From the IMG/VR virus record IMGVR_UViG_2667527849_000012: a DNA stretch of 5,621 nucleotides. The stretch is one strand, 5' to 3'. The DNA is from a virus (taxonomy: Duplodnaviria; Heunggongvirae; Uroviricota; Caudoviricetes). How positions within the stretch are numbered: position 1 is the first letter of the stretch; each line of letters opens with the position of its first letter. The position numbers are program-made. This document shows positions 3,001-5,621 of this stretch, piece by piece.

Positions 3001-5621
3001 GGGATGCGGCGGCCTCAAAAGAGGCAGCGAAATCATCAGAAACGAACGCATCCTCGAGCGCCAGTAGCGCAGCTTCCTCGGCAACAGCGGCAGGAAATTC
3101 CGCGAAGGCGGCAAAAACGTCAGAGACGAACGCCAGGTCTTCTGAAACGGCAGCGGGACAGAGCGCCTCGGCTGCGGCAGGCTCAAAAACAGCGGCTGCG
3201 TCGTCTGCCAGTGCCGCGTCAACAAGTGCCGGGCAGGCCTCAGCCAGTGCCACCGCCGCCGGAAAATCGGCAGAAAGTGCTGCATCGTCCGCTTCAACAG
3301 CCACAACGAAGGCTGGCGAAGCCACTGAGCAGGCCACGGCAGCAGCGAGGTCAGCTTCCGCAGCGAAGACATCCGAAACGAACGCGAAAGCGTCGGAAAC
3401 CCGTGCAGAATCCTCAAAAACGGCTGCCGCATCGTCCGCCAGTTCGGCGGCGTCATCGGCATCATCGGCGTCTGCTTCAAAAGATGAGGCGACCAGACAG
3501 GCGTCAGCAGCGAAGGGCANCAAGTGCCGGGCAGGCCTCAGCCAGTGCCACCGCCGCCGGAAAATCGGCAGAAAGTGCTGCATCGTCCGCTTCAACAGCC
3601 ACAACGAAGGCTGGCGAAGCCGCTGTACAGGCCAGCGCAGCAGCGAGGTCTGCTTCCGCAGCGAAGACATCCGAGACGAACGCGAAAGCGTCGGAAACCA
3701 GCGCAGAATCCTCAAAAACGGCTGCCGCATCGTCCGCCAGTTCGGCGGCGTCATCGGCATCATCGGCGTCTGCTTCAAAAGATGAGGCGACCAGACAAGC
3801 GTCCGCAGCGAAGGGCAGCGCCACGACAGCATCCACGAAGGCGACAGAGGCAGCTGGCAGTGCGACGGCGGCAGCACAGAGCAAAAGTACGGCGGAATCC
3901 GCGGCAACGCGCGCCGAGACAGCGGCAAAACGGGCAGAGGATATTGCATCCGCCGTGGCGCTTGAGGATGCGAGCACGACGAAAAAGGGGATAGTACAGC
4001 TCAGTAGTGCGACTAACAGCACTTCCGAGTCACTGGCGGCAACACCAAAAGCCGTTAAGGCCGCGTATGACCTGGCTAACGGGAAATACACCGCACAGGA
4101 TGCAACGACAGCACAGAAAGGGATAATCCAGCTAAGCAGCGCGACCAACAGCACGTCTGAAACGCTGGCGGCAACGCCAAAGGCAGTAAAAGCAGCCAAT
4201 GACAATGCTGAGAAACGTCTGCAGAAAGATCAGAACGGTGCGGATATCCCTGGCAAAGACACCTTTACGAAAAATATTGGTGCCTGCCGTGCCTTCGGTG
4301 GGTCAGTAAGCACAACAACAGGAAACTGGACGACTGCACAGTTTATCGAGTGGCTGGATTCTCAGGGAGCATTTAACCATCCATACTGGATGTGCAAGGG
4401 TTCCTGGTCTTATGGCAATAATAAAATCATTACTGATACTGGCTGCGGTAATATTCATCTCGCCGGAGCTGTCATTGAAGTAATGGGGATAAAGTCAGCG
4501 ATGACGATCCGCATTACCACTCCGACCACATCCAGCGGTGGCGGAACAACCAACGCCCAGTTTACCTATATTAATCACGGAACAGATTATTCACCTGGCT
4601 GGCGAAGGGACTATAACTCCAGAAATAAGCCAACGGCATCAGAGATCGGGGCGCTACCGTCAGGTGGAACAGCAGTATCATCAGTTAATCTGGCTTCAAA
4701 AGGTCGGGTAGCCGCGCTGACAGACAATACGCAGGGGGCAGCAGGTCTTGAGTTATACGAGGTGTATAACAACGGATATCCAACAGCGTATGGAAATATC
4801 ATTCACCTGAAAGGGATGACAGCCGTTGGCGAAGGTGAGTTACTCATCGGCTGGAGTGGTACAAGCGGTGCTCATGCTCCGGCATTTATTCGTTCACGAC
4901 GGGATACGACCGACGCAAACTGGTCGCCGTGGGCGCAGCTTTACACCTCGGCTCATCCTCCTGCAGAGTTTTATCCAGTCGGTGCACCAATCCCGTGGCC
5001 ATCAGATACCGTTCCGTCTGGTTATGCCCTGATGCAGGGGCAGACTTTTGACAAATCTGCTTACCCGAAACTTGCAGCCGCTTATCCGTCAGGCGTGATC
5101 CCTGATATGCGTGGCTGGACGATTAAGGGCAAGCCCGCCAGTGGTCGGGCCGTATTATCTCAGGAACAGGACGGCATTAAATCGCACACCCACAGCGCCA
5201 GCGCATCCAGTACGGATTTGGGGACGAAAACCACATCGTCGTTTGATTACGGCACTAAATCCACGAATAACACCGGGGCGCATACGCACAGTCTGAGCGG
5301 CTCTACAAGTTCAGCTGGGGCCCACCAACATAGTCAGACTGGGCCCAGAACGAATAGCGGGAGTCAACCTACTGGAATGTTTCCGGCAGGGAGTACTCAA
5401 GTTAGCGGGACTAATCAGGTTGGTATCAGTGGCTCATTAACCAGTGGCACCTCCCAATGGGTAGGTAAATCATCTTCAGAAGGAAACCATACACACTCAC
5501 TGTCCGGCACAGCAGCATCTGCGGGTGCACACGCGCATACTGTCGGTATTGGTGCTCATACGCACTCTGTTGCGATTGGTTCACATGGACACACCATCAC
5601 CGTTAACGCTGCTGGTAACGC

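What the first reader, a model, noticed from the sequence alone, without database searches (positions are those of the whole stretch)
3009..3212. Copy 3 differs from copies 1 and 2 in a second, separate block, giving three haplotype combinations
Copy 3 appears identical to copy 2 for 2232-3008, including the copy-2 variant of the first block. It then carries 16 substitutions in 3009-3212 relative to the equivalent region of copies 1 and 2, of which 14 are synonymous (amino-acid changes S->A and A->G), before becoming identical again. The three units therefore carry block combinations (A,x), (B,x), (B,y). That fits at least three related stf genes with mosaic ancestry, or an assembly graph with two bubbles traversed three ways.
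Basis: seen in the sequence. Interest (0 to 1): 0.45.

Follow-up and report, generated by a model that had tools for sequence, protein, structure and literature searches.

The report
Scaffolded alternative copies of prophage tail-fibre gene
The 16-base difference block is real variation between versions of a phage side-tail-fibre gene (stf), but the "three copies" are alternative assembly pieces joined by runs of N, not a true gene array, so the finding is ordinary.

Summary
Unit 3 (2232-3271) matches unit 2 (1171-2210) except for 16 substitutions at 3009-3212. Fourteen are synonymous; the other two give S240A and A268G.

The "copies" are not a tandem array. Each is bounded by N (21 N at 1150-1170 and 2211-2231; one n at 3520). 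Each restarts at the same base and ends in the same 48-nt anchor. A third alternative pair (3220-3517 / 3518-3815, 298 nt) breaks the reading frame, and deleting either member restores one intact stf ORF of at least 1010 aa.

The gene is the lambdoid side tail fibre gene stf, which follows lom. It is multi-copy in most E. coli genomes and highly mosaic. Two other draft records (L084, ON470598.1) show the same N-joined lom/stf layout; no closed locus does.

The x and y alleles are common natural polymorphisms. All three units can be written as a P2 (= unit 3) prefix plus a P1 (L034-type) suffix, with switch points near unit positions 490, 760 and 1040. The (B,x) unit has no counterpart elsewhere. 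It may be a chimeric path or a strain-specific recombinant; only the reads can tell. The blocks lie 34 nt apart in unit coordinates, not 2.4 kb.

The parts
1..106 (+). 3' end of lom (Ail/Lom outer-membrane protein gene), upstream neighbour of stf. It carries an 83-nt deletion relative to closed genomes.
   Evidence: Annotated as Ail/Lom family in closed loci L001, L082 and L083. The alignment shows the 83-nt gap between two CTGGCG repeats, which shifts the frame and gives a stop at 70-72.
133..164 (+). Intrinsic-terminator-like hairpin plus T-run in the lom-stf spacer. It repeats identically at 1193-1224 and 2254-2285 as part of each unit.
   Evidence: 8-pair stem (7 GC) followed by TTTTTG at 133-154, 1193-1214 and 2254-2275.
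111..1149 (+). Segment/unit 1: spacer plus stf codons 1-326, haplotype (p,A,x). It ends inside the 48-nt anchor.
   Evidence: The nearest independent allele, L034, has 5 mismatches, all at unit 360-474.
1150..1170 (.). Run of 21 N: scaffold gap between units 1 and 2.
1171..2210 (+). Segment/unit 2: the same stretch, haplotype (p,B,x). It equals unit 3[1-777] plus unit 1[778-1040].
   Evidence: The best closed-genome match has 10 mismatches (L082). Its 197-nt B-to-x stretch occurs in no viral contig.
2211..2231 (.). Run of 21 N: scaffold gap between units 2 and 3.
2232..3271 (+). Unit 3: haplotype (p,B,y), called P2 here. Within its segment it continues into z1.
   Evidence: Identical over all 1040 nt to the first unit of L084, an independent IMG isolate assembly. 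It has 4 mismatches to closed genome locus L001.
3009..3212 (+). The finding: the y allele block, with 16 substitutions relative to the x block (888-1091 in unit 1; 1948-2151 in unit 2). It lies in the Ala/Ser-rich shaft of Stf (codons 240-307).
   Evidence: Both alleles segregate at these sites in 63 independent units.
619..854 (+). Block 1, A allele. The B allele lies at 1679-1914 and 2740-2975. There are 14 substitutions, 5 of them amino-acid changing.
3223..3270 (+). 48-nt anchor CAAGTGCC...AAAATCGG, also at 1102-1149, 2162-2209 and 3521-3568. Units 1 and 2 end in it and the last segment begins with it.
   Evidence: (family D6). It occurs four times in the window, at most once in 83 independent loci, and twice only in the N-joined L084.
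3220..3517 (+). z1: the first of two alternative 298-nt modules, attached to unit 3.
   Evidence: (D5). z1-type sequence follows the (q,A,x) allele in L034.
3520..3520 (.). Single n: the join between the segment ending in z1 (to 3519) and the last segment (from 3521).
   Evidence: The reading frame breaks here because 298 is not a multiple of 3.
3518..3815 (+). z2: the alternative 298-nt module (11 substitutions vs z1). It is contiguous with the rest of stf.
   Evidence: (identical to the L084 tail).
3816..5621 (+). Remainder of stf: two Phage_fiber_2 repeats (about 3973-4095 and 4105-4227), a Collar domain (about 4981-5124) and a His-rich distal part. It runs off the window end.
   Evidence: Pfam hits on the one-copy reconstruction; direct repeat D7; open frame.

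Best explanation
The window is a scaffold from a draft assembly. The multi-copy 5' part of the lambdoid prophage side-tail-fibre gene stf has been written out as consecutive alternative segments joined by N. These are three versions of the spacer plus codons 1-326, followed by two versions of the next 298 nt. In the real DNA a single stf gene follows this lom.

The 16-substitution block at 3009-3212 is a genuine allelic difference (x vs y) between stf versions present in the sample, either co-resident prophages or mixed strains. Such blocks arise by homologous recombination between diverged lambdoid stf alleles. The shaft is under purifying selection, so the differences are almost all synonymous.

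All window segments can be written as a prefix of one parental allele P2 (p,B,y,z2) followed by a suffix of another, P1 (L034-type: q,A,x,z1). The switch points fall in identical stretches near unit positions 490, 760 and 1040.

I therefore lean to two real parental alleles, with at least one written-out path being chimeric. (B,x) is the most likely chimera, and the By-z1 join is also suspect.

Shown: the N joins, the shared ends, the frame break, the allele frequencies, the recurrence of the layout in other drafts, and the absence of any array in closed loci.

Inferred: that a unit is chimeric, and which one.

Sub-claim probabilities:
- the tandem layout is artefactual: about 0.95
- the block is real allelic variation: about 0.95
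- at least one unit is a chimeric path: about 0.55
For: 1. Junctions. N runs sit exactly at each junction. Units restart at the same base and end within 1 nt of each other.
2. Anchor. Units 1 and 2 end in the 48-nt anchor that begins the last segment. The anchor occurs four times here and at most once in 83 independent loci.
3. Frame. The 298-nt duplicate breaks the frame at the lone n. Removing either copy gives one open frame of at least 1010 aa with phage_tail_N, two Phage_fiber_2 repeats and Collar.
4. Closed genomes. Loci L001, L082 and L083 show J-lom-single stf-tfa. None of 81 loci has two units. Phage records have 237 places in 235 records.
5. Recurrence. The same N-joined layout appears in L084 (single n; first unit identical to window unit 3; tail identical to window 3521 onward). 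It also appears in ON470598.1 (10 N, second lom-stf, record ending in the anchor).
6. Assembly breaks. 17 of 78 IMG/VR contigs end inside stf. Short reads are reported not to resolve paralogous prophage sequence (PMC5359411).
7. The variation is real. Clustering P about 3e-10, third-position bias P 1.2e-5, dN/dS about 0.04. Both alleles are common in 63 units.
8. Recombination. 45 haplotypes, Rmin 12, and all four junction types exist. Lambda x Rac/Qin recombination across stf-tfa has been shown experimentally (PMC3945230).
9. Two-parent pattern. All five independent A-type alleles carry five extra variants at unit 360-474 that window unit 1 lacks. Rare x alleles (852G in 2/63, 861T in 1/63) otherwise travel with A. 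The 197-nt B-to-x stretch occurs in no viral contig, and the best closed-genome hit to unit 2 has 10 mismatches. L034 is contiguous q-A-x-z1, whereas the window attaches z1 to B-y.
Against: No reads are available, so no unit can be proven chimeric.

The blocks are only 34 nt apart. Any assembler using k above about 34, or reads of 100 nt or more, would have direct support for the B|x junction. That argues unit 2 could be real.

The B|x junction 81-mer does exist once in an independent contig (L026/L085). The population is mosaic enough (Rmin 12) that a strain-specific recombinant is plausible.

E. coli genomes often hold three or more stf places. Co-resident paralogs in other genomes show long identical tracts (L115 vs L123).

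The assembler, and hence how it writes bubbles, is unknown. The source record was not found in any collection.
Confidence: 0.55

Rival explanations
1. All three units are true alleles. The source carries at least three stf paralogs in different lambdoid prophages, or three strains in a mixed sample. Their 5' parts have been homogenised and re-assorted by gene conversion, giving exactly (A,x), (B,x) and (B,y). The scaffold order is still artificial, but no unit is chimeric.
For: stf 5' sequence is present in 4905 of 5426 closed E. coli genomes, with a median of 2 and up to 14 places per genome. The population is heavily recombinant, with 45 haplotypes in 63 units, Rmin 12 and all four junction types. 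Recombination across stf between lambda and resident prophages has been shown experimentally, and every recombinant was a different hybrid (PMC3945230). The blocks are 34 nt apart, so ordinary reads would phase them. Co-resident paralogs elsewhere share long identical tracts.
Against: Pure (B,x) is seen nowhere else. Unit 1 lacks five variants found in all five independent A-type alleles. All segments fit one polarity of switch between just two parents. The three units are 100% identical over the first 508 nt, whereas co-resident paralogs in other genomes differ there.
Confidence: 0.4
2. A genuine tandem array: lom is followed in the genome by three head-to-tail partial stf 5' units. This could be a local amplification, or a set of silent cassettes for tail-fibre variation.
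For: Only the literal order of the segments in the window.
Against: Every junction is N. Units 1 and 2 would be truncated genes without stops. The z duplication is out of frame. 14 of the 16 differences are synonymous, so no protein diversity is generated. No array exists in three closed loci, 80 viral loci or 235 phage records, apart from N-joined drafts. The junction pattern occurs in no genome or metagenome contig.
Confidence: 0.02
3. The block is sequencing or consensus error, or programmed hypermutation such as a diversity-generating retroelement acting on the fibre gene.
For: None specific. Tail fibres are classic DGR targets (own knowledge).
Against: There is a third-position bias (P 1.2e-5) and the same alleles occur in dozens of independent assemblies. 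The substitution spectrum is mixed, with 10 transitions of 16 and no adenine specificity. There is no second template copy in the gene, and x and y k-mers have no intragenic donor. The block lies in the shaft, not the receptor-binding tip.
Confidence: 0.01

Closest known systems
Bacteriophage lambda side tail fibre gene stf (Ur-lambda stf; E. coli K-12 prophage homologues stfR in Rac and stfQ in Qin)
   Same: The N-terminal 134 aa match Pfam PF08400 (Prophage tail fibre N-terminal) end to end. Two PF03406 repeats and a Collar domain follow. The gene sits directly after lom, as in J-lom-stf-tfa of closed loci annotated stfR / prophage tail fiber.
   Different: Nothing fundamental. It is one more allele of a very common gene. 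No closed E. coli genome is more than about 99% identical. The window does not reach the 3' end or tfa.
Recombinational mosaicism of lambdoid phage genes (relaxed homologous recombination between phages and resident prophages; De Paepe et al. 2014, PMC3945230)
   Same: There are sharp blocks of 6-8% divergence between 100% identical flanks. The alleles are shared across many genomes, and all four block-junction types are present in the population.
   Different: Here the recombinants are inferred from sequence, and some may be assembly paths rather than molecules.
Repeat-induced scaffolding artefact: alternative paths of a collapsed or branched repeat written one after another with N spacers in draft assemblies
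   Same: N at each junction, identical segment ends, shared overlap anchor, broken reading frame, and recurrence in two other draft records of the same locus. The known difficulty of short reads with paralogous prophage sequence is described in PMC5359411.
   Different: The assembler is unknown. Each written-out segment spans two variable blocks, which implies some read-level phasing rather than simple bubble listing.

Membership tests
Lambda-type side tail fibre (Stf) | Prophage tail fibre N-terminal domain (PF08400) at the N-terminus | tested here: met
   E 1.4e-71, 239 bits (cut-off 26.6), residues 1-134 against profile positions 1-134 of 134.
Lambda-type side tail fibre (Stf) | Phage tail fibre repeats (PF03406) and a distal collar / receptor-binding part | tested here: met
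   Phage_fiber_2 with two stretches (E 5.9e-37) and Collar (E 6.8e-12). Direct repeat D7.
Lambda-type side tail fibre (Stf) | Synteny J-lom-stf-tfa | tested here: inconclusive
   The lom 3' end lies directly upstream in the window. J and tfa are outside the window. Homologous closed loci L001, L082 and L083 show the full order.
Genuine tandem duplication / cassette array | Sequenced, contiguous copy-to-copy junctions | tested here: not met
   Junctions are 21 N, 21 N and 1 n.
Genuine tandem duplication / cassette array | The same arrangement in independent finished genomes | tested here: not met
   One unit per locus in 3 closed loci and 80 viral loci. 237 places in 235 phage records. The only multi-unit records are N-joined drafts. 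The junction pattern is absent from genome and metagenome contigs.
Scaffold / assembly-graph artefact | Segments share ends and overlap anchors, and collapsing them restores one intact gene | tested here: met
   units start at the same base. The 48-nt anchor ends units 1 and 2 and begins the last segment. The one-copy reconstruction has no stops over 1010 codons.
Scaffold / assembly-graph artefact | Read-level evidence: coverage, and reads spanning the switch points | not testable with these tools
   No reads are available, and the source record was not found.
Recombinational mosaic between stf alleles | Substitutions clustered in blocks between identical flanks, with both alleles segregating elsewhere and all four gametes present | tested here: met
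   P about 3e-10; allele counts, Rmin 12, 284 of 435 site pairs incompatible; A|x, B|y, A|y and B|x junctions all exist.
Diversity-generating retroelement target | Adenine-specific substitutions relative to a template repeat, with a reverse transcriptase nearby | tested here: not met
   mixed substitution spectrum and no intragenic donor. The changes are 14/16 synonymous. There is no RT in the window.

The most novel reading that the evidence does not exclude
All three units are real and co-resident. In that case three prophage stf genes in one cell have been homogenised over their first 508 nt. They differ only by nested conversion tracts of a single polarity, with a P2-type 5' end switching to P1-type at about 490, about 760 or about 1040. 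That would be a snapshot of very recent, directional gene conversion among prophage tail-fibre paralogs.
Probability: 0.3. Interest if true: 0.3.

Novelty: already known. Interest (0 to 1): 0.1.

Why it matters
It matters mainly as a caution. N-joined pseudo-tandem copies of lom/stf recur in public draft records. Examples are an IMG/VR contig and GenBank ON470598.1, where spurious antisense CDSs are annotated over the region. They can be misread as gene amplification, paralog counts or cassette systems.

Biologically, the block only re-illustrates the well-known recombinational mosaicism of lambdoid side-tail-fibre genes. The changes are almost all synonymous and lie in the shaft, so no change in host range is expected.

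Tried and rejected
1. Exact counterparts in closed E. coli genomes. None was found: the best is 99.0% for units 1 and 2 and 98.9% for unit 3 plus z1, and 97.3% for the 3' segment. The "paralog count in the same strain" check could therefore not be done.
2. Locating the source record by its unit-end/unit-start junction. Only the sibling L084 turned up in viral contigs, and nothing in genome or metagenome contigs.
3. Intragenic conversion from neighbouring Ala/Ser-rich repeats as the origin of the y or x alleles. It was rejected: every y 13/17-mer occurs once and no x-mer occurs elsewhere in the gene. TRF finds only the 298-nt pseudo-duplication.
4. DGR or hypermutation. Rejected on the substitution spectrum and the synonymous bias.
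5. A functional reading of the long antisense ORF 2789-3949(-). Rejected: the only Pfam hit is 16.6 bits, below its cut-off of 27.
6. Structured RNA. There are no Rfam hits at gathering score.
7. Whether switch points prefer long identical stretches, as a k-mer signature. The three window switches and the one in L084 all fall in stretches of 33 nt or more. Such stretches make up about half of the span, so this is not significant (my own arithmetic).
8. Whether the order of the units (one block flipped per step) is informative. It is not: any three of four combinations can be ordered that way, with a chance of about 1/3.

Full report
**What is in the window**

The window starts with the last about 106 nt of lom. 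An 8-bp-stem terminator-like hairpin (133-154) follows, then the start of the lambdoid side-tail-fibre gene stf at ATG 171.

The stretch from 111 (CCAGGTAACA...) to about 1149 recurs at 1171-2210 and 2232-3271. The three units are separated by runs of exactly 21 N (1150-1170 and 2211-2231). A lone n sits at 3520.

**Checking the observation**

- Unit 3 equals unit 2 except for 16 substitutions at 3009-3212 (unit positions 778-981).
- Fourteen of them are synonymous third-position changes. The other two give S240A and A268G.
- Units 1 and 2 differ at 14 other sites (unit 509-744).

The pattern is not chance or noise.
- The probability that 16 random sites of 1040 span 204 nt or less is about 3e-10.
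- The probability of at least 14 of 16 falling on third positions is 1.2e-5.
- In the block dS = 0.31 and dN = 0.014.

One correction matters. In unit coordinates the two blocks are 34 nt apart (744 vs 778), not about 2.4 kb. The whole variable stretch is 473 nt.

**Why the three copies are not an array**

- Every junction is N.
- All units restart at the same base and stop within 1 nt of each other.
- Units 1 and 2 stop inside a 48-nt anchor (CAAGTGCC...AAAATCGG), and the last segment (3521 onward) begins with that anchor. The anchor occurs four times here. It occurs at most once in 83 independent loci.
- A further pair of alternatives follows: 3220-3517 (z1) and 3518-3815 (z2). They are 298 nt long with 11 substitutions and meet at the lone n. 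Because 298 is not a multiple of three, the frame breaks there.
- Deleting either z copy, and keeping one unit, gives a single open frame of at least 1010 codons. It carries PF08400 (residues 1-134, 239 bits), two PF03406 repeats and a Collar domain.

Closed E. coli loci show J-lom-one stf-tfa (L001, L082, L083). None of 81 fetched loci has two units. Phage records hold the unit once each, with 237 places in 235 records.

**The layout recurs in other drafts**

A search for the unit-end/unit-start junction found one viral contig, L084 (IMGVR_UViG_2671180490_000011). There a unit identical to window unit 3 runs to ...GGAAAATCGGCAGAAAG. A single n follows, and then TTCTGATTAGCCAGG... restarts a second unit. 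The tail of that second unit is identical to window 3521 onward.

GenBank ON470598.1, deposited as a "partial genome", has lom, an stf 5' part, 10 N, a second lom 3' end and a second stf 5' part. The record ends inside the anchor.

The junction pattern is absent from the genome and metagenome contig collections. In addition, 17 of 78 IMG/VR contigs end inside stf.

This agrees with the reported inability of short reads to resolve paralogous prophage sequence (PMC5359411). It also fits the copy number of the gene: 4905 of 5426 closed E. coli genomes carry the unit, with a median of 2 and up to 14 places per genome.

**What the block itself is**

I genotyped 63 independent, ungapped-alignable units at the 30 diagnostic sites.
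- Both the x and y alleles are common at most block sites, for example 778 T/G at 18/45 and 795 G/A at 38/25.
- There are 45 distinct haplotypes.
- 284 of 435 site pairs show all four gametes.
- Hudson-Kaplan Rmin is 12 within 473 nt.

All four junction types between the two blocks exist. A|x and B|y are seen. A|y occurs in 63 viral contigs. B|x occurs in one.

The block is therefore a segment of standing, recombining polymorphism in the Ala/Ser-rich shaft of Stf. Purifying selection keeps it nearly silent.

The mechanism is homologous recombination between diverged lambdoid stf alleles. This has been shown experimentally for lambda crossed with Rac and Qin across stf-tfa, where each sequenced recombinant was a different hybrid (PMC3945230).

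Other origins were rejected. There is no intragenic donor for either allele, and the substitution spectrum is mixed, with 10 transitions of 16 and no adenine bias. There are no Rfam hits.

**Are all three combinations real?**

This cannot be settled without reads, but several facts point to two parental alleles.
- Unit 3 (p,B,y), called P2 here, is confirmed exactly by L084.
- The A and x blocks belong to a rare allele family, P1 (L034, L041, L052, L083 and the second unit of L084).
- In all five independent P1 cases the allele also carries five variants at unit 360, 381, 447, 463 and 474. Window unit 1 lacks them.
- Rare x alleles (852G in 2/63, 861T in 1/63) and rare A alleles (680T in 1/63) otherwise travel together.
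- L034 is contiguous q-A-x-z1, with 9 mismatches in 1286 nt to that path. The window instead attaches z1 to B-y.

The segments can therefore be written as follows.

| Segment | Composition |
|---|---|
| Unit 1 | P2[1 to about 490] + P1 |
| Unit 2 | P2[1-777] + P1 |
| Unit 3 plus z1 | P2[1 to about 1040] + P1 |
| Last segment | P2 onward (z2 and the rest of stf) |

Pure (B,x) has no counterpart. The best closed-genome hit has 10 mismatches. The 197-nt B-to-x stretch is absent from 2.9 million viral contigs.

There is evidence against chimerism as well.
- The blocks are only 34 nt apart, so ordinary reads would phase them.
- The B|x junction does exist once elsewhere (L026/L085).
- Co-resident paralogs in other genomes share long identical tracts, although they also differ within the first 508 nt, unlike here.

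I put about 0.55 on at least one chimeric path and about 0.4 on three genuine alleles.

**Verdict**

The tandem arrangement is not a genomic feature. The substitution block is ordinary mosaic variation of a well-known, multi-copy prophage gene. Interest is low.

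Noticed in passing
window 60-72 (lom 3' end): Relative to three closed genomes the window lacks 83 nt of lom between two CTGGCG direct repeats. This shifts the frame and creates a stop at 70-72. It is either a real lom pseudogene or another assembly error.
   Followed up: partly
window 3220-3815: There is a third alternative pair (z1/z2: 298 nt, 11 substitutions) joined by a single n at 3520. It is out of frame, so the literal sequence reads as a frameshifted stf. z1 is attached to the (B,y) unit here but follows the (A,x) allele in L034.
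   Followed up: yes
window 470-584 (unit 360-474), compared with L034, L041, L052, L083 and L084: All five independent A-type alleles carry T360G, A381G, G447A, G463A and A474C. Window unit 1 has the B-type bases at all five sites, so its 5' 508 nt are identical to the other two units.
   Followed up: yes
L084 (IMGVR_UViG_2671180490_000011), 1-2404: A sibling draft assembly has two stf 5' units joined by one n. Its first unit is identical to window unit 3. Its second unit is q-A-x, switching to y at unit 933-981. Its tail is identical to window 3521 onward. The two assemblies thus give different mosaics of the same two alleles.
   Followed up: yes
L149 = ON470598.1, 34300-37380: This GenBank "partial genome" of phage vB_EcoS-569R4 contains lom, an stf 5' part, 10 N, a second lom 3' end and a more divergent stf 5' part. 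The first stf 5' part has no plus-strand CDS annotated. Instead it carries minus-strand CDSs called "tail fiber protein" and "peptidase_M14NE-CP-C-like", which are probably spurious.
   Followed up: partly
window 2789-3949, minus strand: A 386-aa antisense ORF, and several others of 100-230 aa, lie opposite the Ala/Ser-rich shaft. The only Pfam hit is below its cut-off (16.6 vs 27 bits). They look like a by-product of GCN/TCN-rich codon periodicity.
   Followed up: yes
window 5185-5621: The distal part of Stf carries repeated His-x-His motifs (GAHTHS, GAHQHS, GNHTHS, GAHAHT, GAHTHS, GSHGHT). From memory, these resemble the metal-binding HxH repeats of T4 gp37-type fibre tips. This was not tested here.
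   Followed up: no
L082 (NZ_CP028760.1), locus 8159-9040, minus strand: A reverse-transcriptase-domain gene lies immediately downstream of tfa in this closed genome. L001 has the pinQ invertase in the equivalent position. Neither is relevant to the substitution block.
   Followed up: no
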